A stretch of 34,288 bases of DNA from Candidatus Heimdallarchaeota archaeon. GTDB taxonomy: Archaea; Asgardarchaeota; Heimdallarchaeia; Hodarchaeales; Hodarchaeaceae. Shown here piece by piece: positions 16,906-33,110 of this stretch. The stretch is from NCBI GenBank assembly GCA_048881705.1, contig JBHLSH010000040.1, forward strand, positions 1 through 34,288, in the 5' to 3' direction. The first letter of the stretch is position 1. Each line of letters begins with the position of its first letter. The notes beneath the pieces were generated by a model, which did not search any database, was not told the origin of the DNA, and worked only from the letters and a program-made list of their open reading frames with translations. A program made the position numbers and the translations under genes.

Positions 16906-19716
16906 ATGAAAAGATCGTTTTCCAATATAAAAGCAAGATTCGACCCTGTTGTTTGGTACCACATGACTTCAATTTCGGATAAATCTCCCATCTTATGGCG
17001 CCAATACGACAATATCTTGGAAGACTTGGCTCAATCTCGCGATATTGAGACTGCGATCCAAGAACTAGAACAAATCGTCAAAGCCAATGATCCACAACCC
17101 CCTATCGATCTCCTCCTGGCCATAACCAAGATTTACCTTCGTTTTAAACGAGTATCCAAAGTAAAACGCACATACGCACGGATCCTCCAGTTGGATCCCG
17201 GTCATCGCCAAACTTGGAAACTCTTGTCAGAAATGTACTTCAAAGAAAAGGATGTCGAAAAAGGGCAATTCTGTATGCAAAAATATTACTCATTAGGGGG
17301 TGGAAATGCTCAGATATCCAGTACAACCAAAAAAAGGTTGACTAGCACAGGTCGATTGAAACGGCTTCCATCAGGCCAGCCACTAGGGTTAGTGAGTGGG
17401 CGGGCTGTCCACCAGCAGTCACCGCAGCAGACACTATCCAGCCAGGATTTTGAGACCCGTTTCAAACTTAATCCCTCTTCTCTTCCCCAGGCGCTTCGTC
17501 GAGTTTTAAACTTCGGTGAACATCAAATTGTGGATTACCGTTGTTATGATGCCCGTCCTGGAGAATTTGGGGACCCTGACCTGGATTTGATCTCTAATTC
17601 CGAACTTAAAGCTCATCTTTATGATAAAGGCATTATACGATTATTCAAGTTCCAAGAACAGGCATTTCGAGCCATTCTCAAAGGCGAGGATGTCTGCATC
17701 GTTGCACCAACCGGGAACGGGAAGACTGAGGCATTTATTCTCCCCACTTTGGTAAGTCTCCAAGAATATCAGGGTTATGGAGTACAAATGGTTATTATAT
17801 ACCCCCAAAAGGCGCTAGCTAAAGACCAGCTAAGAAAAATTGAAAATTTTGCATCCACTGTGGGTTTGTCAGTCAAAGTATTTGATGGCGATACTTCGCA
17901 CTATTGGCGGAAGAAGATCTACCAAGATCCGCCCGAAATTCTTATTACAAATCCTGATATATTACATTACCATCTTGGCATTGGCAAGAATGCCTCACGC
18001 TTTCAGAATCTCCTATCAGGCTTGAAAATCGTAGTTTTGGATGAAGTCCACACATTCTCAGGGACGTTCGGGAGTAATATGTTCTATATTCTACAACGCC
18101 TAGAGCGAGTGGTGGGGCAAGCCCTGCAATATATCTCGTCATCTGCCACCATGGCCAACGCCCAAGATTTTGTATCACGCCTCATTCAACGAAAAGCTAG
18201 GGTTATCGAGTGTAAGAATGGAAAAAGAGGTCGTTTCCACTTCCTGATGGTAGCTCCCTTCGAAGGGGTCAATACACTGGATTCTACCGTGAACTTAGTG
18301 AATACAATACGACAATATGGGAAGACATTGGTGTTTCAAGATTCTCATCGGAGGGTAGAGCAAATGTATCAGGCTTTGGGACGTTCATCTAAACGCGTTG
18401 GAATTCACCGAGCTGGCTTGAGTAAGAAAATGCGAGAAAATGTAGAAGCTGATTTTCGTGAGGGAAAACTTGAGGTTCTCGTCGCTACGCCCACCATGGA
18501 ACTGGGTGTAGACATTGGTGATCTCACCCACGTCATTACTCCCCCTATCTCAGTGAATCGTGCCATGCAGAGGTTTGGCAGGGCAGGTAGAAAGGGCCAG
18601 GAATCCCTCGCAATAGTTGTATTGAATGCGGACGATCCTATTTCCAATTATTATTATCAACATCCTGATCGATATTATCAAGACCTGGAAGGAGTGTTCT
18701 TTGATCCTGGAAACCCAGAAGTTCAAACACACCAATTATTGTGTGCGGCATTAGATCTCCCTATTAACGCGGATGAGTTTCCCTTATACCAACACGTCTT
18801 ACAGGAGTTGGTGACGAATCGACTCTTAGAGAAAATAGGGGATACTTATATACCAACGAAAGCAGGTACAAAACAAGCACACAAGTACTCAATCCGAGGA
18901 ATAGCTCATCAGATCACCATCAAAATTAGAGAGGGGCAGACCATTGGAAAAAGATCTCAACCCCAAGCTATGTTGGAACTTCATCCTGGGGCTATTTACT
19001 ACGCTGCTGGAAGACGTTACCAAGTAGCTAACTTTTGGTTTAACGGAACTCGGGGGGGAGCCGATTTAATCTCTCCCTCTCATAAATGGGGAACCACCAG
19101 TCCCCTGTATCGAATGAAGCCTAAAATCCTTGAGATACTCAATTTATCCAATATCTTCAAACTCGAAACCGCATTTGTGGAAACTAAGATTCTCCATAGT
19201 GTGTTTGGATACGTACTTCGAACTCCAGATCGGATTCAGGCTAAGAACTTGAAAGACCCTCTTTACTATACCACACAAGGGAAAGGGCTTCTATTCCATA
19301 TTCCCCAAGTTGGTATGGTAATGGAACGGCCAGCTTATGAAAAGGCGGCTCATACGGTGGTTCATACATTGCTACACGCAAGTCTCCCCTTCATCGGTGG
19401 GCAACTTCAAGATATCGGGGGTGTTTTACTCCTTCCGTTTGGATATATCCTTCTGTTCGACCAACCAACTGGCGCAGGAGTCTGTACTATGCTTCAAGGC
19501 CACCTTCCATCTTTGTTCGAACGAGCTCATGATCTCCTTGGATGTACTTGTAAAAATCCTATTGGTTGCCCGCGCTGCACATTTCTTCCTCGCTGTACGT
19601 CACAAAACACCAATCTAGATAAATATGGAGCACGAGCGATCCTTCATGGCATTCTCAATAATGTATCCATGCCGCTAGGAGACCTCTACGACCAATGCAC
19701 TCAAACGTTAATGTAA
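16906..19716 (+). CDS. SF2 DEAH-box helicase with C-terminal DUF1998 Zn domain (Hrq1/MrfA/SftH type) and N-terminal TPR extension
   Basis: Q motif (LFKFQEQA), APTGNGKT, DEVH, SSAT, HRAGL, TPTMELGVDIG, QRFGRAGR, YSIRG, ELHPGAIY and CTCKNPIGCPRC. TPR-like helices lie in about the first 130 aa. The start may be ATG 16963. Confidence 0.92.
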   Translation: MKRSFSNIKARFDPVVWYHMTSISDKSPILWRQYDNILEDLAQSRDIETAIQELEQIVKANDPQPPIDLLLAITKIYLRFKRVSKVKRTYARILQLDPGHRQTWKLLSEMYFKEKDVEKGQFCMQKYYSLGGGNAQISSTTKKRLTSTGRLKRLPSGQPLGLVSGRAVHQQSPQQTLSSQDFETRFKLNPSSLPQALRRVLNFGEHQIVDYRCYDARPGEFGDPDLDLISNSELKAHLYDKGIIRLFKFQEQAFRAILKGEDVCIVAPTGNGKTEAFILPTLVSLQEYQGYGVQMVIIYPQKALAKDQLRKIENFASTVGLSVKVFDGDTSHYWRKKIYQDPPEILITNPDILHYHLGIGKNASRFQNLLSGLKIVVLDEVHTFSGTFGSNMFYILQRLERVVGQALQYISSSATMANAQDFVSRLIQRKARVIECKNGKRGRFHFLMVAPFEGVNTLDSTVNLVNTIRQYGKTLVFQDSHRRVEQMYQALGRSSKRVGIHRAGLSKKMRENVEADFREGKLEVLVATPTMELGVDIGDLTHVITPPISVNRAMQRFGRAGRKGQESLAIVVLNADDPISNYYYQHPDRYYQDLEGVFFDPGNPEVQTHQLLCAALDLPINADEFPLYQHVLQELVTNRLLEKIGDTYIPTKAGTKQAHKYSIRGIAHQITIKIREGQTIGKRSQPQAMLELHPGAIYYAAGRRYQVANFWFNGTRGGADLISPSHKWGTTSPLYRMKPKILEILNLSNIFKLETAFVETKILHSVFGYVLRTPDRIQAKNLKDPLYYTTQGKGLLFHIPQVGMVMERPAYEKAAHTVVHTLLHASLPFIGGQLQDIGGVLLLPFGYILLFDQPTGAGVCTMLQGHLPSLFERAHDLLGCTCKNPIGCPRCTFLPRCTSQNTNLDKYGARAILHGILNNVSMPLGDLYDQCTQTLM

Positions 19717-20904: not shown

Positions 20905-21408
20905 TCAGTCTTTACGATAATTGTTACATTTCAAACATTGGAGAACTCCATTGATGAAAAACTGAGGTTTGAAACACCTAGAGCAATATATGAATAGGTG
21001 ATTCGACTCTAAGATTTGACCATTCTGTTTTTCCATAATAAGACGAAAAAGCGATTCTTTTTCGTACCGAGATAGGGGGACCTTTGAAAGCTGCCAAATT
21101 GCTTCCTGGGTGTTCCCGACCCGAAGAAGACTTTCAATCAACATGCGTATTACAGTGATATCAGTAGAAGGGAGGAGAGGATATAAATACTTAAGAGCGG
21201 ATCTTGAATTACCCCTTGCTAAATATAATTTGGCCAATTTGAGATTTACCGCAATTCGGAGCGAAGGGGCGTTTCTATACAGATACTGAAGCATTTCTAG
21301 GGCTTTATCCCATTCTGCCGTCTCAATATACTGATCAGCTAGGTTAAACCACTCCGCTTTTCTCTTATCTGTCTCACTGGCCACCTGAGTCTTTCGGCGA
21401 TAAGACAT
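20905..21408 (-). CDS. TPR-repeat protein with C-terminal Zn ribbon
   Basis: TPR-like helix pairs (AEWDKALEMLQ, LAKLYLARGNSRSALKYL, LLRVGNTQEA) and CSRC-x12-CLKC. Confidence 0.75.
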   Translation of the reverse strand: MSYRRKTQVASETDKRKAEWFNLADQYIETAEWDKALEMLQYLYRNAPSLRIAVNLKLAKLYLARGNSRSALKYLYPLLPSTDITVIRMLIESLLRVGNTQEAIWQLSKVPLSRYEKESLFRLIMEKQNGQILESNHLFIYCSRCFKPQFFINGVLQCLKCNNYRKD

Positions 21409-21429: not shown

Positions 21430-21939
21430 TTATCTTTGGTGATTCCGTTCCCATAATGGGGTTGTTTCGAAGCTTAAACTGGAACGATGGTTCATAAGTC
21501 GAAGGACTTCCTGGCGTACTCCAGGCCGTGGTTCCTGAAAACGAGCTAAGCGACGCACCTGGAGCAATCCAGTTGATGTTAAGGTTATCACTCCGATTCC
21601 CGCTTCTTTTGCCCATTTTAACTGTTGATCCTTTGTAAGGGTGTCCAAGTAGTCAAACTGGGACTCAGGACAGACAAGATAACAATAATCACAGAAAGGG
21701 CGGTACAATTGAGGATGTTGGATGTGGAACTGTGATTCGATTTCGAAAAAATGGATTGATGCATCAAGAGGATGGATACCAGCAAGATCTATTCTAACCT
21801 GACTCTGACCTACTAGATCTTCAAGATGGAGGTGTTTCGAAGTGATCTGAAGTTCTTGAAATGTTCGAAATTGCATTCTCTCTGCTAGGATGGAGTTTAA
21901 CCGTTGTGTTAACACTGATTCAGGGGGTGGAGATTCCAT
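21430..21939 (-). CDS. MmcB/DUF2161-like PD-(D/E)XK-fold protein
   Basis: RIDLAG...IHFFEIES...LYRPFCDYCYLVCP...GIGVITL matches the recalled MmcB-type layout. ExK reads EIE. Confidence 0.7.
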   Translation of the reverse strand: MESPPPESVLTQRLNSILAERMQFRTFQELQITSKHLHLEDLVGQSQVRIDLAGIHPLDASIHFFEIESQFHIQHPQLYRPFCDYCYLVCPESQFDYLDTLTKDQQLKWAKEAGIGVITLTSTGLLQVRRLARFQEPRPGVRQEVLRLMNHRSSLSFETTPLWERNHQR

Positions 21940-22008: not shown

Positions 22009-22284
22009 TTGATGAATGATTTCACCTATTTAAATGGCGAGCAAGGACTAAAGAGTGAGAAATTACAGGATCAGCCGTCAATGCACCAACTTCCAGTTTC
22101 GGATTTGATCTCTAAAAGTCCTGTGTGTCAAATTTGTGAGGCCGGAATTACAAAATCCTGTCCCCTTCTACTGTACGATCAGCTGCCAGGCGTAATTCAG
22201 GTTAAAAACAATAAGATAGTGAGCTGTACTGCACAGCGTATATACCTAGGGTATCCCCATTCCTTCAAGAAAGAGGTGGTGTGA
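22009..22284 (+). CDS. Small Cys-rich (putative metal-binding) protein
   Basis: CxxC-x7-C-x21-C. Its 3' end carries the GAGGTG SD for the next gene, whose start lies 4 nt downstream. Confidence 0.5.
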   Translation: MMNDFTYLNGEQGLKSEKLQDQPSMHQLPVSDLISKSPVCQICEAGITKSCPLLLYDQLPGVIQVKNNKIVSCTAQRIYLGYPHSFKKEVV

Positions 22285-22288
22285 TCTC

Positions 22289-23749
22289 GTGACAACTCCT
22301 CAATCCGCATCCCAGGTTCCCTCCACTTCCCTCCTAAAGTTTGAACCTACAGTAACTGAACAAATGTTACTTCCGCAATTACAAGCATATAATCTTCTGA
22401 TCTTATACAATCGCCCTACGAGCTTATTCCGGATCTTAGCGTTCTTTTCTTTGTTTTACTGCAACCAGATGGAGGGACGGATCCTCATCCTTACAAAAAA
22501 GAGTTTTCAGAAGGAGCTACAGGTAGAACTCAAGAAACGGATCAAATTACATTCCTCTATCCTAAATGGGGCCATCCTACCCAATGCACGTAGAACTGAT
22601 TATGGGCAATTCCCCCTAATTGTCTCGACTCCGAGTACGACAAAGAATGACATTATGAACCACCTGGTTACCGTCGATCACTTTGGATTGATATTAATAG
22701 ATCATGCGGAAATGGGCGCTAGTTCTCGCACTCTACGCTGGCTTTGTTCCCAGTTCAACCACATTCGCCGCTGTGGATTTACCCAAATGACGGAAAGGGG
22801 ACGTTTGAAGCGTGCCCAACTGAATATGGGATTGAATCGAATTATTTCTTATGAACTGGCACCAAAGGGCCCAACACGCCCAAATCTACAGCACTACCCA
22901 ATTCCTCTACCTCAGGAATATCACTTCCTCCTTGATATTCTGAATGAAATTCGGAAATATGAACTGAAAGCCCTCCAGAATCTAGGGTTTCCCGTGTCAC
23001 CCAAAAGCTCACAACGGGAAATCGCTCTGCTTCATGATACATTGAAAACTGACCAGGCTCGCGCAAAGCTCGTGAAAACGGGTAATTTACTCAGAATAAT
23101 CAACCTCCAAAAAACAGTAGTTTCTAAAGGTTTTCCCGCCGCCCTCGACTACCTCCAAAGACTCGAGGATCAACTGTCTGTTGATCAAGACTTCTCGGGT
23201 AAACACGGACTTAATGAGTTCCTCTCAAACCCAAAAATAATGAAAATCAGGGATTTCCTTTTTACTTACAAGGATCTCATGCACCCAAAAATCCAGATGT
23301 TATTGAAGATTGTACGCGAAAATACAGGTCTAATATTGGTGATTACCCCCAATTTCGACATCGCAAGCTATATAACTTCTATTGTTCAGGCCCATGAGAT
23401 TCCCCTTTCCTATTTTTCAGACCCTCTTAGTAAGTACAGTGAAATTCAAATCAAACAACGCTTGGCAAAAATTAGTGGTTTCCAAACCCGGGTAGCTATT
23501 GCTAATACAGTGAATACGGTCTTAGCGGAGCGAGCCAAGATAATAATCGGATTTGAGGTATCGGCAGCCTTAATGGAACGCTTCGATAGGATCGAAGTAG
23601 AAATTCCTAGAATTTTTCTTATCGCAAAGCAAACCACTGAAGAGCAACGATTTTTTCAACTAAAAAACCTTGGTCGACCTCGAACTACACAAACCTCTGA
23701 CGTAATTGAGGGCGAATACCAGGGTAAGAACAAGAGTGATTCATCCTGA
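22289..23749 (+). CDS. Hef/FANCM/Mph1-like SF2 helicase homolog, predicted ATPase-dead, without ERCC4 nuclease
   Basis: Collinear with the recalled archaeal Hef sequence (IVSTPSTTKND, insertion domain PIPLP...KGFPAALDYLQRL, HPKIQML, FLIAKQTTEE). There is no GKT, DEAH reads DHAE at 22700-22711, and motif VI reads ERFDRIEV. Confidence 0.8.
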   Translation: MTTPQSASQVPSTSLLKFEPTVTEQMLLPQLQAYNLLILYNRPTSLFRILAFFSLFYCNQMEGRILILTKKSFQKELQVELKKRIKLHSSILNGAILPNARRTDYGQFPLIVSTPSTTKNDIMNHLVTVDHFGLILIDHAEMGASSRTLRWLCSQFNHIRRCGFTQMTERGRLKRAQLNMGLNRIISYELAPKGPTRPNLQHYPIPLPQEYHFLLDILNEIRKYELKALQNLGFPVSPKSSQREIALLHDTLKTDQARAKLVKTGNLLRIINLQKTVVSKGFPAALDYLQRLEDQLSVDQDFSGKHGLNEFLSNPKIMKIRDFLFTYKDLMHPKIQMLLKIVRENTGLILVITPNFDIASYITSIVQAHEIPLSYFSDPLSKYSEIQIKQRLAKISGFQTRVAIANTVNTVLAERAKIIIGFEVSAALMERFDRIEVEIPRIFLIAKQTTEEQRFFQLKNLGRPRTTQTSDVIEGEYQGKNKSDSS

Positions 23750-24522
23750 GATATCTCTCTTCATCGAACTTATTGGAATATATGACGTGCCCAAGGCAGT
23801 TCGCATATAGACGAATAGCCCACCTAAGTCTTGTTCATCCTCCCTCCCATATGTTTGCTATTCAGGCCCGGACTCATATTCGGCGCGTTACTACTGGTAT
23901 ATTATCCTTTATTTACGAAAAATTTGCCGCAGCTAAACAAATGGGCACAGATAACCTCCGTCACCTTATCGACCTCCATAACAACACATTACAGAGATAT
24001 TGGAACGGGAAGGGCGTTGAAACGTACATCTCTTACTTAGAGGAAGCGATTTATTCACTCATTGAGTATTTTCTAGATAAATTTTGTTTCACTTCCGACC
24101 AACGGGATATTCCTGTTTCCATTCCCATTATGCTCTATCAAATAATTGCATCTCCGGCATTGGGGTTAGTTGGACAACCCTCGGCCGTTTTTCAACATGC
24201 TGACGGTACGGTACTAGTATTGATTCAAAGTTGGCGAGACTCGCATAAGGATATGGAGAAGATGGGAGTCCAGGCAGCGATCTATAACCAGATTTTGACT
24301 TCAATGGGATTTCAGAACACAGAATTCTTCTATGTCAACTATCAGTCCTCAGAGATCGTTTATCGTTCAGTCACTCCCGATGATGTTACGCTTCTCGATC
24401 AAACGCTGTCAGACATTGAGGAACAGTACTTTGAGGGAGAATTTCCACGATCAGCGGCTCCACCTTGCGGATCCTGTGAGTATTTTTTACTATGCGAAAC
24501 TCGACAGAAGGTGATCTACTAA
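23746..24522 (+). CDS. AddB/RecB/Cas4-like PD-(D/E)XK Fe-S nuclease homolog, predicted catalytically dead
   Basis: YLSSSNLLEYMTCPRQFAY N-terminal motif, QAAIY, and CGSCEYFLLC (four-Cys iron staple). Motif II reads GQPS and motif III has no acidic residue or Lys. The first ATG/GTG/TTG is 23773, but the conserved motif begins upstream of it, so a CTG 23746 start is inferred. Confidence 0.78.
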   Translation: MRYLSSSNLLEYMTCPRQFAYRRIAHLSLVHPPSHMFAIQARTHIRRVTTGILSFIYEKFAAAKQMGTDNLRHLIDLHNNTLQRYWNGKGVETYISYLEEAIYSLIEYFLDKFCFTSDQRDIPVSIPIMLYQIIASPALGLVGQPSAVFQHADGTVLVLIQSWRDSHKDMEKMGVQAAIYNQILTSMGFQNTEFFYVNYQSSEIVYRSVTPDDVTLLDQTLSDIEEQYFEGEFPRSAAPPCGSCEYFLLCETRQKVIY

Positions 24523-27741: not shown

Positions 27742-28317
27742 CTACGGCCCCCCTGATAAGAAAGTTGTGAGGACAAGTAGTGTTAGATTGAAAATTGCTC
27801 CCCCTATCCCAATACGAGATATTTTTTCATTCTGTGCAAGATCATTGAATGATGTGTACCCTAGTCGGAGCTTTCGGACTGTACGAATCTCTACCCACCT
27901 ATAATGCCTAATTGGATGATTTGTAATGGTGGATTTAGTGCCAAGGGGAATACCTTCCTTGTTAAAGGCGTCAAGTAGAAGGTGCGAGTACCAACCCACC
28001 AAACTGCCAACGAAAAGGAAATTCACAAGGGGAGATTCAATAATTTGGTCAATATACCACAGAGGAAAAAAATAGATGCCAGTCCACGGGGAATGGGTTA
28101 GAGGATGTCGATATCGACGTAGGAGAACCCCGTTATGATCCCATCGGGCACCTACTCGACGATCCAACCAGTTTGGCAATAAACTCAAGCAAGCCACCGC
28201 GAACGCTAATAGGGAAAATCCCCAGGCTAATTGCATTTGCTCAGCCCGCACAACGAAATAGAATATTAATAAGTGGATCAACCCAAGAGCAAAGAGGTAA
28301 TGTGTGAGACTTTTCAC
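27742..28317 (-). CDS. YdjM/DUF457/DUF1286-like membrane metal-dependent hydrolase
   Basis: THYLFALG, LPNWLDR, RHPLTHS, SHLLLDAFNKEGIP. GTGA start/stop overlap with the upstream gene. Confidence 0.78.
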   Translation of the reverse strand: MKSLTHYLFALGLIHLLIFYFVVRAEQMQLAWGFSLLAFAVACLSLLPNWLDRRVGARWDHNGVLLRRYRHPLTHSPWTGIYFFPLWYIDQIIESPLVNFLFVGSLVGWYSHLLLDAFNKEGIPLGTKSTITNHPIRHYRWVEIRTVRKLRLGYTSFNDLAQNEKISRIGIGGAIFNLTLLVLTTFLSGGP

Positions 28318-31300
28318 AGACTCCCTTCCTTACGACGGTTGATCACTAGGTTGCCTGTAGAAATCATCACAACTAAAACAATAGCACCAATTACTATTTG
28401 GGGAAAAAGTTCGTCGTTGAAAGGAACAGACGATTGGTTACTACCAGAAGAAGGATTCGCATTGGTAGAATTTACCTCTGACTCCCCTTCAACAGTAAAA
28501 GGTCCTATAACGCGCACCTGTTCTTGCCCAATATCGTCTGTTGCGACAATTCGAAAGGAATATGTTCCTATATCCAACCAAACCGTAAACGTATAAGTTT
28601 GGCCAGACCTGTGCGAAGGATATTGATCTCCATTAACCTCCAAAAAAACCGCAGTAACCTGATAATCATCAGTTACGTCTACTGTGACTTGAACATTACC
28701 TCCATCCTCTTGAAAATTCGCTTGCTGAATAGTACTATTCCCGATCACAGGTGGGGAGTCTGTTGCATTAAATGTCCCCAGTATAATCCTTTGGGCACCA
28801 TGAATATCAGAAATTACAAGTGAATAATTCCATAATGTTCGTGCGAGCAGGGGTGAACGGAAAATCCATCTCTGTGTCGTGCTTCCAATGGATTCATAGA
28901 TCAGGACACCTGTCACATTTAGGGCGCTTTCATCATTTATGAGTTCAAGGTAGACTGCTGAGGTGTCTATTGATGCATTTTCCTTATTGACAAGTATCGT
29001 GAGAGTAAAGTTTTGCCTTGCTTTCGCATAATTATCAATGAAGATATTGGGAGCAAACCATGAAGTGTAATAGGTACTTGAATGAGAGGGACTACCTAGG
29101 TCCCAAGGATACCATACCATGAGGATTATTGAGAGATTCTGAGGCATTATGTGAATTTGGCCCTCATACCTGTTCCAGATTGCCTGGTAGGTAAGAGGGT
29201 AGTTCTGTCCATTTATCTCAATTGTCACCTGATCTATTGGGAGTCCGATGGTATCCACCTCTACTTGCGCTTCATAATACACGGACTGCCACGTAAAATC
29301 AAATGAAGCGACGGTAGGCGCAGGAGGATACCACGTTACGGTGAAATGACGCATGTCATACTCGCCCAAAGTGGTACGGGCGTATAAAGTGATTCCCCAG
29401 ATCCCAGGAAATGGAAGCTGAAAATCTAGGGTATAATTCTGGGTGAAAAAATCCCATTGTAAGTCGCCAACATAAGATCCATTTCGCCAAACCCCTACAC
29501 TCTCGAAATCAGGGTTGTTTTGTAAAAGGGTTTGAACGTTGTAGCTACCAGCACCATCTACTTCCACCAAACGAGGGTCAATCAATAGATCAGCGGAGGG
29601 GACAATGGAAAAGTCTACTGTTTGGTGAACATTATTCCCTGCCTCGTCAAAAGCATACGCTGTGAGTTGATATTGACCAACTGTCAAATTATAAGCCATT
29701 GGGAGAGTATAGGTCTGATTTGTCGTATGGAGCCCTGAGATGAAATAGAGAATTGTAGCTCCATCAGAGGAGATAGATAAGTTAAAGTCTCCAATGTAGC
29801 TTTGGTTAAACGGGGTATCAATTTGTAGAATAGGTGGAATAGTATCAATGGAAAAACTGACCTGTTGGGTTATATTGTTAGATACCATATCTTCTACGGT
29901 TATTTTGAGAAGGTGACTCCCCTCGGACAGACTTTGGAATATAGAGGGGTATGGAGAGGGAACTGTGTTACCATCCAACCAGACTGAAACCTGGGTACCA
30001 TCCGTAAGAAAGGAAAATTGAACGTCTGAGGAAACATATGACGTATTTATGGGACTAATGATTCCCAAGGAGGGAGCAGTTGTGTCAACGGTGAAATCTG
30101 CAAATACGTGGGTCATTAAACCCCATTGGTTCACCCCATACGCATGTAGGGTATAACTACCTTCAACCAATGAGCGATACACAGTTTTATCCCATGTAAC
30201 GTTGTCAGAATCTACAGTATCGATGAAATACAAATAATTCTGGGCATTTCCGTCCAAAAAAACAGGAAAGATCCCTCCTACTGTGGTGGTGTGCGCAGGA
30301 CTGAGAATATTTACAACTGGAGGTTCTGGTTTCACCTCTAGATACATCATAGGACTCAAAGCCTCTTGGAAATACCCTGATGAGGGAGCTTGTACTTGGA
30401 GGGCATACATTCCAGGTTGATTGAATTGGATGTAGAAGTCATAACGACCCGCGCCATTTGTTACGTCTACCACACTCGAAGTGCCATTGACATATAATAC
30501 AGCATCATGAGCAGTCAGAGGGCCCGTGATCTCCCCAAGGACTAGTCCATCTAGATGAACGGTCACATTTATTGTAGTCGTGGCAGGAGAAGTTAAGGAG
30601 ACAGCCACTTCTTCATAAACTGCAATGAGATTTTGAGTCTCTCGTAAGTAAACGTAGGTGTCATTACAACGAACCATGATATTCTTGGACCCGCGACTAG
30701 TGAAAGTATGACTGTACGGAGTCGGACCTCCACCTCCTCCAACCCAATTCTGCCAAAGGATCCCTTCTATCCAAATTTGATAACGTTCCGAGCTGTTCAC
30801 GGTAAAGTAGTAGGGATCATTAACACTTCCAATACCTGATCCGATAACTGTAAGGTCGGATATGACCCACATGGTACTAGAATCGTACTTGGTATCGCTG
30901 GGGCCTTGCGCGCGGATTGTAAATCCACCCTTATAATAGGGCGTGGACCAATTAAATGTGCCCTGCCCAAAGCCATTGAGTTGAGTTGTTCCAATTACAA
31001 ACCAGCTAGGTTCGCCATTTTTCTGCCAACTCAAGTCGATCAAATCATTAAGACCGCCCTCGAGGGTGATTATGGTCCAATTATTTGCCACCACCTCGGT
31101 AGCGATCATCACGGAGAGAGGAGGCCGTACGGTGAAGCTGAGAATAGGCGTGTTGGTTGCTCCACGATAGAATCGGGGGATATTTCCCGTGTAGGAAACT
31201 TCGACGAAGTGGAGGCCAATTTGGGTTGATCGGGAGATGAAGTAGTCAGAGATAAAGATACCGTTGGCGTCTGTTTGTGCTGTTCCTAAAAAGACCCCTG

Positions 31301-33110
31301 AAGTGGTATCTGTCAAACTAACCTCCTCAAAATAAACCGGATTCCCAATTTCATCCAATAGTTCTCCCCATATTCGAAGTGTGTGTCCTTTCACCACCTC
31401 TGAGGCATTCTGACCAGTCGCATTGAAGGTCGGATTAGAGATTATGCTAAGGTTGAAGATTTCTACATGCGCATCATAGTTAAGAGATCCAAGATAGTGA
31501 ATCTGGTATTTACTAACCCCCAAAACATGATTGGGTTCTATATAGAAGTAAAAGTCCAATCCCGGGGCTGCATTCTTAGTTTCGATAGCGGTACCATTGG
31601 AGAATTCAAGTACGATTTGACCCTCAATTAATGCTACCCCACCGGAAAGTACAGTTGCGGTGATAGTGGTAGTTGTCGCACGATCAACTATCCCTGTTCC
31701 ATAGTCTAGATCAATTGTGGTGATACCTTTGATCGTGACCATGACCTCCACTTGCTGATCTAGGATATCAGATGGTGTGTTGAATGTCCTTAATCCATAC
31801 TTATGGAACCCTACGGTGGCATTGCTCGGGATTTGGGATGTAAATATCACAAACCCGTTAATATCCAATGTTCGGTTCTCCAATGAACGATACCCATCTG
31901 TCACATCTATCAGTTCTACGTCCCCAAAAACAGGTCTAGTCCAAACATCTTCCTCTGTGACGTAAACTGAAAACTTTATCGTCTCATTGTGTCTATATAT
32001 GCTCGAATTGGTTGTCGGATCTATACGGGCGTTATCTACGATAACTAATCCTTGACTGATGTTGTCGTATATATTGGATCCACTTGCATCGGTCAAAACC
32101 GTGAAAATAGTCAACAAACCTAACGTAACGGAGCTATTGGGAGAAAAGGTAAACATAACGTCCCTTGAAGTTAAAATAATCTGGTTTATGGTTATCCTCT
32201 TTCCCCCGCGGAAATAATACGACTCTAAAGGAAGACCCACGGGATAATCTCCTACCACCGTGATATTAAATTCGGATGTTTCCGCATTTCGTTGAATTGT
32301 GGTTTGGTTCACTCGTTGAACCAGAGAGAATCCATCCCCTTCGATTTGGACGCCGAACCATGAGGAAAACGCTGGGGCCGTCCCGCTTAATCCGGACCCC
32401 GTATAATTTGCAATGAAATAGTTCAGACCAACAGGGGAGAATTCTGGGATGGGGTAACTAAAACTATGCGTTAACACTGTGGGATTACTGTCAGGATAGT
32501 AGAACGGGAGGGGACCGTATGTGTAGATAGTGGGGGTTCCTGATAAATTCTGGTTGGTCACAGAAAGATAACCCCCTTCAAAATACCAGTTTTCGAGGAT
32601 GGAGAGCGTCAGCGTAAAACTTACGGTGCCATTCTTATGAGCCACAGTCGAATTAGCATCTAGGTCCAAGAATGGAGATTGTTGGGTTCCAGGTGTTATG
32701 TCCTCTACAAAGACCTTACAGGTTCCCGAACTCGTTTGATAGCCAGGAAATCCCTGAAAATCAGCCCGAAAGATATGGGTACCAGGAGTGGAAAGGCTCC
32801 ATGGCCAAGTGCTAGTGATGCTTCCACTCACTAAGCTAATGACATCCGTTTGAGTAGAATTGAGATGAGTAATAAGAACTGAACCCGTTGGAACCGGATC
32901 CACCCCTGCATAAACAATGACGGTAAAAACTGGAGGTTCGCTTGTTCCAACAACCCCAGTGTCGCTCAAAAGAGTGGTAGTGGTACTTAAAGGAGCCGCA
33001 AGGATAGATGTGGAGCTTGAAAGAACAACAATTACACTTACAATAACCCAGAGTAAAAATCCTCTTTGTAGTTTATTTTCATGCTTCATGTTAGCAGAGC
33101 CATTGAACAT
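28314..33110 (-). CDS. 1598-aa cell-surface protein with tandem Ig-like domains
   Basis: Signal peptide, beta-strand-rich repeats, many NxS/T sequons, Ser/Asn linker, C-terminal TM + RRK tail. No catalytic motif recognised. Confidence 0.88.
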   Translation of the reverse strand: MFNGSANMKHENKLQRGFLLWVIVSVIVVLSSSTSILAAPLSTTTTLLSDTGVVGTSEPPVFTVIVYAGVDPVPTGSVLITHLNSTQTDVISLVSGSITSTWPWSLSTPGTHIFRADFQGFPGYQTSSGTCKVFVEDITPGTQQSPFLDLDANSTVAHKNGTVSFTLTLSILENWYFEGGYLSVTNQNLSGTPTIYTYGPLPFYYPDSNPTVLTHSFSYPIPEFSPVGLNYFIANYTGSGLSGTAPAFSSWFGVQIEGDGFSLVQRVNQTTIQRNAETSEFNITVVGDYPVGLPLESYYFRGGKRITINQIILTSRDVMFTFSPNSSVTLGLLTIFTVLTDASGSNIYDNISQGLVIVDNARIDPTTNSSIYRHNETIKFSVYVTEEDVWTRPVFGDVELIDVTDGYRSLENRTLDINGFVIFTSQIPSNATVGFHKYGLRTFNTPSDILDQQVEVMVTIKGITTIDLDYGTGIVDRATTTTITATVLSGGVALIEGQIVLEFSNGTAIETKNAAPGLDFYFYIEPNHVLGVSKYQIHYLGSLNYDAHVEIFNLSIISNPTFNATGQNASEVVKGHTLRIWGELLDEIGNPVYFEEVSLTDTTSGVFLGTAQTDANGIFISDYFISRSTQIGLHFVEVSYTGNIPRFYRGATNTPILSFTVRPPLSVMIATEVVANNWTIITLEGGLNDLIDLSWQKNGEPSWFVIGTTQLNGFGQGTFNWSTPYYKGGFTIRAQGPSDTKYDSSTMWVISDLTVIGSGIGSVNDPYYFTVNSSERYQIWIEGILWQNWVGGGGGPTPYSHTFTSRGSKNIMVRCNDTYVYLRETQNLIAVYEEVAVSLTSPATTTINVTVHLDGLVLGEITGPLTAHDAVLYVNGTSSVVDVTNGAGRYDFYIQFNQPGMYALQVQAPSSGYFQEALSPMMYLEVKPEPPVVNILSPAHTTTVGGIFPVFLDGNAQNYLYFIDTVDSDNVTWDKTVYRSLVEGSYTLHAYGVNQWGLMTHVFADFTVDTTAPSLGIISPINTSYVSSDVQFSFLTDGTQVSVWLDGNTVPSPYPSIFQSLSEGSHLLKITVEDMVSNNITQQVSFSIDTIPPILQIDTPFNQSYIGDFNLSISSDGATILYFISGLHTTNQTYTLPMAYNLTVGQYQLTAYAFDEAGNNVHQTVDFSIVPSADLLIDPRLVEVDGAGSYNVQTLLQNNPDFESVGVWRNGSYVGDLQWDFFTQNYTLDFQLPFPGIWGITLYARTTLGEYDMRHFTVTWYPPAPTVASFDFTWQSVYYEAQVEVDTIGLPIDQVTIEINGQNYPLTYQAIWNRYEGQIHIMPQNLSIILMVWYPWDLGSPSHSSTYYTSWFAPNIFIDNYAKARQNFTLTILVNKENASIDTSAVYLELINDESALNVTGVLIYESIGSTTQRWIFRSPLLARTLWNYSLVISDIHGAQRIILGTFNATDSPPVIGNSTIQQANFQEDGGNVQVTVDVTDDYQVTAVFLEVNGDQYPSHRSGQTYTFTVWLDIGTYSFRIVATDDIGQEQVRVIGPFTVEGESEVNSTNANPSSGSNQSSVPFNDELFPQIVIGAIVLVVMISTGNLVINRRKEGSL
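29597..30330 (-). repeat. Three tandem ~80-aa Ig-like modules within the surface protein (approximate bounds)
   Basis: PPVVNILSP, DTTAPSLGIISPINTSY and DTIPPILQIDTPFNQSY recur about 240 nt apart. They are followed by EGSYTLHAY, EGSHLLKIT and VGQYQLTAY respectively. Confidence 0.6.

What the first reader, a model, noticed from the sequence alone, without database searches (positions are those of the whole stretch)
22289..23749. Dead Hef/FANCM homolog whose DEAH box is reciprocally swapped to DHAE
Seen: the Walker A position reads LILYNRPTSLF, motif II is LILIDHAE (E and H exchanged), motif III TAS reads TQM and motif VI is ERFDRIEV. Both RecA lobes and the Hef-specific insertion are kept, and there is no ERCC4 domain. 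Known: the Hef/FANCM insertion domain recognises forked DNA. Inference: an ATP-independent fork or junction sensor. The swap may preserve an intramolecular contact or be coincidence.
Basis: partly seen in the sequence, partly recalled or inferred. Interest (0 to 1): 0.72.

Follow-up and report, generated by a model that had tools for sequence, protein, structure and literature searches.

The report
Dead Hef paralog, short form
An Asgard (Hodarchaeales-type) archaeon keeps, under purifying selection and beside a normal Hef, a second copy of the Hef fork-repair helicase that has lost its ATP-site residues and has no nuclease domain, much like the inactive helicase module of eukaryotic XPF; the eye-catching DEAH-to-DHAE 'swap' is a lineage-specific accident.

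Summary
ORF 22289-23749 (+, 486 aa) carries every quoted string. It is a Hef-type SF2 fold: sequence E 1.4e-6, family profile E 1e-15, Foldseek E 8.5e-24 to P. furiosus Hef 1wp9, then FANCM. ATP-site motifs I, Ia, II, III and VI are lost. Lobe-1 motifs Ib/Ic and the Hef insertion signatures are kept. dN/dS is 0.14.

An intact Hef (751 aa) and a short XPF exist elsewhere in the genome.

The 'reciprocal swap' is not conserved. Only Ala-Glu is near-invariant; DHAE occurs in 2 of 22 members.

The family is confined to one GTDB family (19/20 genomes; 0/280 others). Most members are about 640 aa and carry a probable ERCC4-like pseudonuclease domain. The window copy has lost that domain, and it is absent genome-wide.

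A small four-Cys protein directly upstream has the same distribution. MmcB-like, TPR and MrfA-type helicase genes are conserved neighbours.

Best reading: an ATP-independent DNA-structure-binding or scaffold subunit of a repair module. Binding itself is inferred, not shown.

This scan had already found the long form in other genomes. New here: the short form, the refuted swap, the co-restricted partner, and FANCM-like candidate intermediates. No published description was found.

The parts
22289..23749 (+). Degenerate Hef paralog ('dHef'), short form, 486 aa: RecA1-like aa 12-190, Hef-type helical insertion aa 197-330, RecA2-like aa 331-460, disordered tail aa 461-486
   Evidence: ORF; 1wp9 E 1.4e-6, profile E 1e-15; model pLDDT 80; Foldseek 1wp9 8.5e-24, FANCM 9el5 6e-19; dN/dS 0.14; NF010337 61 bits against cut-off 610
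22406..22432 (+). Degenerate motif I (Walker A position): YNRPTSLFR opposite LPTGLGKTV of Hef; no Gly-Lys-Thr
   Evidence: degenerate in all 25 family members compared
22562..22654 (+). Retained lobe-1 motifs Ib (LNGAILPNARRTDY) and Ic (STPSTTKNDI), near-invariant in the family and similar to Hef SG..P.KR / TPQT..ND
22700..22711 (+). Motif II position: DHAE opposite DE(A/V)H of Hef; only A140 and E141 are near-invariant in the family
22781..22789 (+). Degenerate motif III: TQM opposite TAT/TAS
22901..23290 (+). Hef-type insertion signatures retained: IPLPQEY, NLLRI..LQK...SKGF, HPK
   Evidence: 30 positions at 95% or more within aa 197-330
23576..23599 (+). Degenerate motif VI: ERFDRIEV(EIP) opposite (RAI)QRxGRGR; arginine fingers lost
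22009..22284 (+). Small four-Cys protein (up91), 4 nt upstream of dHef, with a GAGGTGGTG Shine-Dalgarno-like run in its 3' end; same phyletic distribution as dHef
   Evidence: conserved directly upstream in the related loci; 19/20 genomes of the family, 0/280 others; junction sequence; dN/dS 0.19
21430..21939 (-). Divergently transcribed MmcB-like PD-(D/E)XK-fold protein (up169) with invariant RIDLA..FFE(A/I)E..FCDYCYL.CP
   Evidence: Atlas structure TM 0.71-0.75 and features 0.90-0.94 to MmcB-like clusters; alignment; adjacent in the related loci; wider distribution, 60/301 genomes
20905..21408 (-). TPR protein with C-terminal CxxC..CxxC zinc-ribbon-like tail, conserved neighbour
   Evidence: Pfam TPR_14/TPR_19; synteny
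16906..19716 (+). MrfA/Hrq1-type helicase with N-terminal TPR; conserved at the edge of the block
   Evidence: Pfam DEAD, Helicase_C, WHD_HRQ1, MZB; synteny in G259, G130, G139, G184, G241, G211
23746..24522 (+). Cas4/AddB-like PD-(D/E)XK-family gene abutting dHef only in G000 and G102; likely start at CTG 23746 overlapping the dHef stop (cTGA)
   Evidence: Pfam PDDEXK_1, PADLOC Cas4; junction and conserved N-terminal extension; orthologs 7-16 kb away in other genomes

Best explanation
The gene encodes a selectively maintained, catalytically dead paralog of the archaeal fork-repair helicase-nuclease Hef. This much is shown. It has the Hef/FANCM/XPF-type fold (RecA1, helical insertion, RecA2). 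The residues that bind and hydrolyse ATP (motifs I, Ia, II, III, VI) are gone in every member. Lobe-1 motifs Ib/Ic, the Hef insertion signatures and the post-VI helix stay near-invariant. The family is restricted to one Heimdallarchaeia/Hodarchaeales-type family, which also keeps a normal Hef and a short XPF. Most members add a C-terminal domain that is probably an ERCC4-like pseudonuclease. The window's lineage has lost that domain. The rest is inferred. The protein acts without ATP as a DNA-structure-binding or scaffold subunit, the way the inactive helicase-like module of XPF binds ds/ssDNA junctions and partner proteins. It probably works with the small four-Cys protein encoded 4 nt upstream. 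It probably belongs to a repair module with the neighbouring MmcB-like nuclease-fold protein, TPR protein and MrfA-type helicase, families whose characterised members deal with mitomycin-C-type damage. In long-form relatives the pseudonuclease domain may pair with the Hef or XPF nuclease domain, as ERCC1 pairs with XPF. In this lineage that link is gone, and a Cas4-like gene has become translationally coupled instead.
For: Fold and family. Motif loss and retention. Purifying selection (dN/dS 0.144 against 0.110 for Hef in the same genome pair). Intact Hef and XPF in the same genome and throughout the family. Clade restriction; sharply bounded family in 1.84 billion proteins. C-terminal domain of long forms: XPF becomes the top Foldseek hit over about 700-740 columns; Atlas features give SPO16/SCRE 0.89, ERCC4, FANCM pseudonuclease, ERCC1; fold order b-a-b-b-b-a-a-b-a-b-a at pLDDT 80-90. 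Its absence from this genome. Partner and neighbourhood. Analogies from the literature: XPF helicase-like module lacks ATP residues yet binds DNA and SLX4 (PMC7048804); Zip2-Spo16 is inactive and binds branched DNA with TPR protein Zip4 (PMC5859969); hef mutants are mitomycin-C sensitive (PMC7776575); MmcB and MrfAB act in mitomycin-C repair (PMC13705206). Both losses of the pseudonuclease domain coincide with an altered (ELK) or missing Hef nuclease.
Against: No DNA binding, partner binding or lack of ATPase has been measured. The neighbourhood synteny extends to unrelated genes (giant Ig-repeat protein), so part of it may reflect relatedness and not function. Sequence profiles cannot link the long-form C-terminal domain to ERCC4 (hhalign probability 0.2%; Pfam ERCC4 misses it), and it was never folded or searched alone. 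The small partner is short and fast-evolving, so its absence outside the family could be a detection limit. The Hef-nuclease / pseudonuclease co-loss rests on two or three events. Motif V is also degraded, so lobe-2 nucleic-acid contacts may be weakened.
Confidence: 0.6

Rival explanations
1. A pure protein-protein adaptor or regulator (for example a decoy or inhibitor of the canonical Hef, or an assembly factor) that no longer touches DNA. The conserved surfaces would then be protein interfaces.
For: Motif V is degraded and motif Ia is lost. There is a tightly coupled small partner, a TPR neighbour, and in this lineage a translationally coupled Cas4-like gene. The XPF helicase-like module also serves as a protein-docking platform for SLX4.
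Against: The best conserved stretches are exactly those shared with active Hef in lobe 1 (Ib, Ic) and the insertion, not new family-specific patches. Known dead relatives (XPF module, Zip2-Spo16) still bind DNA.
Confidence: 0.2
2. A component of an anti-virus or mobile-element defence island and not of chromosomal repair, with the dead helicase acting as a sensor for foreign DNA structures.
For: The neighbourhood holds helicases and PD-(D/E)XK proteins. The MrfA-type helicase gives generic PADLOC hits to BrxHI/DruE-type helicases, and the downstream gene hits Cas4 models. The distribution is clade-restricted.
Against: PADLOC finds nothing for dHef, the small Cys protein, the MmcB-like protein or the TPR protein. 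The block sits at a stable syntenic position in nearly all genomes of the family, unlike a mobile patchy island. There is one copy per genome and strong purifying selection.
Confidence: 0.1
3. Still an NTPase, using non-canonical residues in place of the classical motifs.
For: A conserved Glu (E141) remains at the motif II position, and several Arg residues lie near the motif VI position in this copy.
Against: No Gly-Lys-Thr/Ser or any conserved Lys at motif I in 25 members; motif VI arginines are not conserved; motif III is lost; motif V has a two-residue deletion. No Pfam helicase or P-loop model matches at E up to 1.
Confidence: 0.04
4. A decaying pseudogene or truncated remnant with no function.
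For: It lacks the C-terminal domain that most relatives have. The window lineage evolved fast (stem 1.1-1.3 substitutions per site).
Against: The 486-codon frame is uninterrupted. dN/dS is 0.144, like the canonical Hef. The same short form is intact in G102, and an independent short-form clade exists. A Shine-Dalgarno-like run and operon coupling are present.
Confidence: 0.03

Closest known systems
Archaeal Hef (P. furiosus Hef helicase domain, PDB 1wp9; NCBIfam NF010337)
   Same: Same fold and domain order (RecA1, helical insertion, RecA2). It is the only significant sequence match in the PDB (E 1.4e-6 single sequence, 1e-15 profile). Shared Ib, Ic, PLP.EY, NL.R...QGF, HPK and post-VI signatures.
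   Different: All ATP-site motifs are lost. No ERCC4 nuclease and no HhH2. It scores 61 bits against a 610-bit cut-off, while the genome's real Hef scores 641. It is separated from all Hefs by a stem of about 4 substitutions per site.
Helicase-like module of eukaryotic XPF (human XPF-ERCC1, PDB 6sxa/6sxb, 9qec)
   Same: An SF2 RecA1-helical-RecA2 module that has lost ATP binding and hydrolysis yet is retained. Long-form relatives have XPF as their best full-length structural match (E 3e-22). The XPF module binds DNA junctions and partners (PMC7048804).
   Different: XPF keeps a catalytic GDXnERKX3D nuclease and HhH2 in the same chain. The window protein has no nuclease domain, and the long forms have at best a dead one without HhH2. 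By sequence and fold ranking the helicase part is closer to Hef and FANCM than to XPF, so this looks like parallel decay, not orthology.
FANCM (translocase, PDB 9el5) with its C-terminal pseudonuclease and FAAP24
   Different: FANCM is an active ATP-dependent translocase. Here the ATPase is dead.
Zip2/SHOC1-Spo16 (with TPR protein Zip4): the catalytically inactive meiotic XPF-ERCC1-like complex
   Same: A non-catalytic XPF-family module that binds branched DNA structurally (PMC5859969). The long-form C-terminal domain's nearest language-model neighbours are SPO16/SCRE clusters (0.89). A TPR protein is a conserved neighbour.
   Different: There is no evidence of homology beyond the superfamily. 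The window copy lacks the XPF-like domain altogether. All Atlas scores are below 0.9 and are leads only. The organism is an archaeon without meiosis.

Membership tests
Archaeal Hef (NCBIfam NF010337 equivalog) | Whole-protein score above the curated cut-off (610 bits) | tested here: not met
   61.3 bits, E 5e-17; the genome's own Hef on contig C1 scores 640.8 bits in the same call
Archaeal Hef (NCBIfam NF010337 equivalog) | SF2 fold with the Hef-type helical insertion between the RecA lobes | tested here: met
Archaeal Hef (NCBIfam NF010337 equivalog) | Intact ATPase motifs I (GxGKT), II (DExH), VI (QRxGRxGR) | tested here: not met
   YNRPTSLFR, DHAE, ERFDRIEVEIP at the aligned positions; lost in all 25 family members compared
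Archaeal Hef (NCBIfam NF010337 equivalog) | C-terminal ERCC4 nuclease (GDXnERKX3D) plus HhH2 | tested here: not met
   No Pfam domain; the protein ends after RecA2; the family C-terminal-domain HMM finds nothing in the whole genome (best E 0.14)
XPF-type inactive helicase-like module | RecA1-helical-RecA2 module lacking ATP-binding and hydrolysis residues | tested here: met
   definition from PMC7048804
XPF-type inactive helicase-like module | Covalently linked catalytic ERCC4 nuclease and HhH2 | tested here: not met
   Absent in the window protein. In long forms there is no GDY/ERK, and Pfam ERCC4 and hhalign are negative
XPF-type inactive helicase-like module | Obligate heterodimer with an ERCC1-family partner | not testable with these tools
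   No complex prediction available. Only circumstantial co-loss of the Hef nuclease and the dHef pseudonuclease
FANCM | Active ATP-dependent translocase motifs | tested here: not met
   fold similarity only (9el5 E 6e-19)
ERCC4/ERCC1-superfamily pseudonuclease domain (long-form relatives only) | ERCC4-like (restriction-endonuclease-like) fold without catalytic residues | tested here: inconclusive
   For: XPF is the top full-length Foldseek hit over about 700-740 columns, Atlas neighbours are SPO16/ERCC4/FANCM-PND/ERCC1 at 0.78-0.89, and the secondary-structure order fits. Against: hhalign 0.2%, and the domain was not reached by VIA because the helicase part filled the list
Known anti-phage defence proteins (PADLOC-DB 2.0) | Match to any defence-system model | tested here: not met
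   No hit at E up to 0.001 for dHef, the long form, up91, up169 or the TPR protein

The most novel reading that the evidence does not exclude
Within one archaeal class, the Hef family has gone through the same stepwise loss of catalysis that produced the eukaryotic XPF/FANCM/ERCC1 heterodimers. The series would run from Hef (both activities live), to FANCM-like paralogs (live helicase, dead nuclease, HhH2; P0042, P0043, G268:C424), to the doubly dead long form, to the helicase-like-only short form in this window. The dead paralog would work as the non-catalytic partner of the canonical Hef or XPF (through the pseudonuclease domain) or of other nucleases (MmcB-like, Cas4-like). That would make it the first prokaryotic example of a catalytic/non-catalytic XPF-family pairing, in the archaeal group often placed nearest to eukaryotes.
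Probability: 0.25. Interest if true: 0.75.

Novelty: new variant of a known kind. Interest (0 to 1): 0.55.

Why it matters
Eukaryotic genome maintenance relies on XPF-family proteins in which one enzymatic module has been converted into a structural one: the XPF helicase-like module, the FANCM and ERCC1/FAAP24/EME1 pseudonucleases, and Zip2-Spo16. Archaeal family members are described as active homodimeric enzymes. A conserved, selected, catalytically dead Hef paralog in Heimdallarchaeia/Hodarchaeales-type archaea shows that this kind of pseudoenzyme evolution also occurs in archaea. It offers a small, tractable protein (486 aa, helicase-like module only) for asking what such a module does without ATP. 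The co-restricted small Cys protein and the MmcB-like, TPR and MrfA-type neighbours give concrete partners to test. The headline feature of the original finding, the DHAE swap, does not matter.

Tried and rejected
1. The 'reciprocal swap' as a conserved feature is rejected: DHAE occurs in 2 of 22 members and only Ala-Glu is conserved.
2. Sole degenerate Hef of the genome is rejected: an intact Hef and a short XPF are present.
3. C-terminal domain split off as a separate gene is rejected for the assembled 91%-complete genome (best E 0.14). The same HMM finds all the long forms.
4. Sequence-level link of the long-form C-terminal domain to ERCC4 failed (hhalign 0.2%; Pfam ERCC4 misses it). The link to the dead nuclease regions of the FANCM-like paralogs also failed.
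5. VIA-align wide search on the 631-aa model told nothing about the C-terminal domain, because helicases filled the list.
6. Orthology with the second active Hef paralog of families f7/f5 ('Hef2', next to the MmcB-like gene) is not favoured but not rejected (AU p 0.114). Duplication from the family's own Hef is also compatible (p 0.575). The origin is unresolved.
7. The downstream Cas4-like gene as a lineage-specific acquisition replacing the lost domain is rejected: orthologs lie 7-16 kb away in other genomes.
8. Defence-system membership: no PADLOC hit.
9. A -1 frameshift fusion of dHef to the Cas4-like gene: no slippery site is visible in 23740-23749. A CTG start overlapping the stop is more likely.
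11. Literature searches found no description of an Asgard dead Hef.
Full report
THE OBSERVATION. The ORF at 22289-23749 (+) is real. It has a GTG start, a TGA stop and 486 codons. Each quoted string occurs once: LILYNRPTSLF (aa 37-47), LILIDHAE (aa 134-141), TQM (aa 165-167) and ERFDRIEV (aa 430-437). Pfam recognises nothing in the protein even at E = 1. A plain phmmer search of all PDB sequences finds one significant match, the helicase domain of Pyrococcus furiosus Hef (1wp9, E 1.4e-6). In that alignment PTGLGKT lies over PTSLFRI, DEAH over DHAE and TAS over TQM. A profile of 22 family members raises this to E 1.1e-15 and covers 1wp9 residues 10-481. No other solved family reaches significance.

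WHAT IS LOST AND WHAT IS KEPT. I aligned 25 members of the family with 28 canonical Asgard Hefs. Lost in every member: motif I (LPTGLGKT becomes YsteeaLiR-like; no Gly-Lys-Thr), Ia, II, III and VI (QRxGRGR becomes a non-basic stretch). Motif V is degraded and has a two-residue deletion. Kept and near-invariant: Ib (NG..LP.AR..DY against SG..P.KR), Ic (STP.T.KND against TPQT..ND), the insertion signatures PLP.EY, NL.RI...SQGF and HPK, and the post-VI helix KQT.EE.RFF. This is the pattern expected of a protein that no longer uses ATP but keeps the surfaces it shares with Hef.

THE 'SWAP'. At the motif II position the 22 aligned members read NQAE (6), DYAE (4), NHAE (3) and DHAE (2, the window and its 92% ortholog). 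HQAE, DQAE, LQAE, NQSE, NQAR, VDAK and LNAE occur once each. Only Ala140 and Glu141 are conserved at 90% or more. The reciprocal D-E-A-H to D-H-A-E exchange is a coincidence of one shallow lineage. What may deserve attention is the conserved Glu at the former His position.

NOT A PSEUDOGENE AND NOT THE ONLY HEF. Against its ortholog in genome G102, dN/dS is 0.144. The canonical Hef of the same genome pair gives 0.110. The window's genome (3.96 Mb, 155 contigs, 91% complete) carries two further XPF-family genes. On contig C1 there is a 751-aa Hef with PTGLGKT, DEVH, TAT, QRQGRGR, an ERCC4 domain and HhH motifs. On contig C29 there is a 236-aa short XPF with GDY...ERK. The real Hef passes the curated NCBIfam Hef model (640.8 bits, cut-off 610). 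The window protein scores 61.3 bits. It is a divergent relative, not a Hef equivalog.

THE FAMILY. The k-mer-seeded search found 32 relatives. In whole genomes the family is present in 19 of 20 other genomes of the window's GTDB family. It is absent at E <= 1e-30 from 280 other genomes sampled across the phylum. An exhaustive HMM search of 1.84 billion representative proteins shows a sharply bounded family: about 11 representatives score above 170 bits, and canonical Hefs score 95 bits or less. In trees the family is monophyletic (support 100). It sits on a stem of about 4 substitutions per site from all Hefs.

LONG AND SHORT FORMS. Most members are 620-660 aa. The extra 130 residues form a compact domain with the order b-a-b-b-b-a-a-b-a-b-a, modelled at pLDDT 80-90. 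With this domain present, human XPF overtakes Hef as the best Foldseek hit (9qec_A, E 3.3e-22, about 700-740 aligned columns). A protein-language-model search of the domain alone returns SPO16/SCRE (0.89), ERCC4, the FANCM pseudonuclease domain, ERCC1/Rad10 and PARTING DANCERS. No GDY, ERK or D.RE is present, the Pfam ERCC4 model does not see the domain and hhalign against ERCC4 domains of the same genomes is negative. I therefore call it a probable ERCC4-like pseudonuclease, and this is not proven. The window protein lacks the domain. An HMM of the domain recovers it in every long-form locus (E 1e-12 to 1e-66) and finds nothing in the window's genome (best E 0.14). Short forms fall in two groups, G000+G102 and G193/G184/G107/G119. 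The dHef tree does not resolve them as sisters, and the Hef tree separates them. Two independent losses are therefore likely, though one loss is not excluded.

A CORRELATED CHANGE IN THE REAL HEF. In G107, G119, G184, G193 and G301 the canonical Hef is about 522 aa, helicase only, with no ERCC4 domain. For G107, G119, G184 and G193 the dead paralog is the short form; G301 was not in that search. In G000 and G102, the other short-form lineage, the Hef nuclease signature reads ELK instead of ERK. It reads EYK in G241, whose long form has the most divergent C-terminal domain. The twelve other long-form genomes compared have ERK. So both losses of the pseudonuclease domain coincide with an altered or missing Hef nuclease. 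That is what an XPF-ERCC1-like pairing of the two domains would predict. It rests on two or three events, and I treat it as a lead.

NEIGHBOURHOOD. Directly upstream (4-nt gap, with GAGGTGGTG in its 3' end) lies a 91-aa protein with four conserved Cys (CxxC...C...C). It sits at that position in the related loci examined. Its distribution is identical to that of the dead Hef: 19/20 in the family and 0/280 elsewhere. The caveat is that a short, fast-evolving protein is hard to detect at a distance. On the branch to the window's lineage these two genes diverged most. The identity ratios are 0.51 and 0.64, against 0.85 for Hef. Divergently transcribed is a 169-aa protein with an MmcB-like PD-(D/E)XK fold (Atlas structure TM 0.71-0.75) and an invariant RIDLA..FFE(A/I)E..FCDYCYL.CP signature. 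It is older and wider than the dead Hef (60 of 301 genomes). Next come a TPR protein with a zinc-ribbon-like tail, a 370-aa protein, and an MrfA/Hrq1-type helicase (DEAD, Helicase_C, WHD_HRQ1, MrfA Zn-binding domain). This order is kept in G259, G130, G139, G184 and G241. In many genomes an XPD/Rad3-type helicase converges on the 3' end of the gene. In the window's genome that helicase is on contig C101. Flanking genes that look unrelated are also syntenic, so gene order alone is weak evidence of function. Characterised members of three of these families act on mitomycin-C-type damage: archaeal hef mutants are MMC-sensitive and Hef acts at stalled forks (PMC7776575), and MmcB and MrfAB are MMC repair factors (PMC13705206). 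PADLOC gives no hit for the dead Hef or its three closest neighbours.

THE DOWNSTREAM JUNCTION. Only in G000 and G102 does a Cas4/AddB-like gene abut the dead Hef. Its conserved N-terminal stretch (YLSSSNLLEY, and YLSPSSLLEY in G102) begins upstream of the first canonical start codon. A CTG overlaps the dead Hef's stop (cTGA) in both genomes. This suggests translational coupling. Orthologs of this gene lie 7-16 kb away on the same contig in other family members, so a local rearrangement brought it next door.

ORIGIN. AU tests reject neither a duplication of the family's own Hef (held-together tree 3.3 log units better, p 0.575) nor common origin with the second, fully active Hef paralog of families f7/f5 that lies near the MmcB-like gene (p 0.114). 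The best non-family hits of the dead-Hef profile are P0042 and P0043 (128 and 123 bits). Together with a second paralog in the sister family f2 (G268:C424), they have live helicase motifs, a nuclease region without catalytic residues, and HhH2, which is a FANCM-like state. In one tree the dead family shares a bipartition with two of these three (SH-aLRT 93). All are long branches, and their C-terminal regions cannot be linked by profiles. It is not established.

MECHANISM AND CONFIDENCE. Shown: Hef-type fold, loss of the ATP site, absence of a nuclease domain, purifying selection, clade restriction, a co-restricted upstream partner gene, and a normal Hef and XPF in the same genome. Inferred: ATP-independent binding of branched or junction DNA and/or scaffolding within a repair module. 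The analogies are the XPF helicase-like module, which lacks ATP residues yet binds ds/ssDNA and SLX4 (PMC7048804), and Zip2-Spo16, an inactive XPF-ERCC1-like pair that binds D-loops and Holliday junctions with the TPR protein Zip4 (PMC5859969). I put 0.9 on 'selected, catalytically dead Hef paralog' and about 0.6 on the full statement that includes DNA-structure binding or scaffolding.

NOVELTY. I found no paper describing such an archaeal protein. This scan had already flagged the long form in five other genomes, with the same basic reading. The kind (a non-catalytic XPF/Hef-family module) is well known in eukaryotes. A helicase-like-only archaeal paralog with a dedicated small partner is a new variant of it.

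Noticed in passing
G000 contig C1 (L004:688-2943:-) and L057; other Hef loci L058-L077: The canonical Hef nuclease signature is ERK in twelve genomes of the family. It is ELK in G000 and G102 and EYK in G241. In G107, G119, G184, G193 and G301 Hef is a 522-aa helicase-only protein without ERCC4. These changes track the loss or divergence of the dead paralog's C-terminal domain.
   Followed up: partly
window 23737-23790; L017:2930-2990: The Cas4-like gene's conserved N-terminus (YLSSSNLLEY in G000, YLSPSSLLEY in G102) starts upstream of the first ATG/GTG/TTG. A CTG overlapping the dead Hef's TGA (cTGA) is conserved in both genomes and is the likely start. No slippery site for a -1 fusion is evident.
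   Followed up: partly
L094-L099 (G123, G238, G280, G092, G262, G289; families f7/f5): A second, fully active Hef paralog (PTGTGKT, DEAH, TASP, QRxGRTGR; about 790-820 aa) lies 2-5 kb from the MmcB-like gene in these families. This suggests an older Hef-paralog / MmcB-like association.
   Followed up: partly
L108:1-2505:+ (G268 contig C424, family f2); P0042; P0043: These are archaeal FANCM-like Hef paralogs: intact helicase motifs, a nuclease region lacking D.RE/GDY/ERK, and HhH2 retained.
   Followed up: partly
window 21430-21939 (-): The MmcB-like protein family here has Glu-x-Glu (FFEAE/FFEIE) where PD-(D/E)XK nucleases usually have E-x-K, plus a conserved FCDYCYL.CP Cys cluster. Whether it is catalytically active is open.
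   Followed up: no
L012, L016, L018, L020, L021 downstream of dHef; G000 contig C101 (L054): An XPD/Rad3-type helicase (DEAD_2 + Helicase_C_2) converges on the 3' end of dHef in many genomes of the family. In the G107-type short forms it overlaps that end by about 20 nt. In the window's genome it has moved to another contig.
   Followed up: partly
window 16906-19716 (+): The MrfA/Hrq1-type helicase carries an N-terminal TPR stretch. In PADLOC it gives strong but generic hits to BrxHI, SngC and DruE-type helicases.
   Followed up: no
window 28314-33110 (-) and 33290-34288 (+): The giant Ig-repeat protein and the gene at 33290 are syntenic with the dHef block across the family, at varying orientation. 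The whole region of about 35 kb behaves as one conserved neighbourhood.
   Followed up: no
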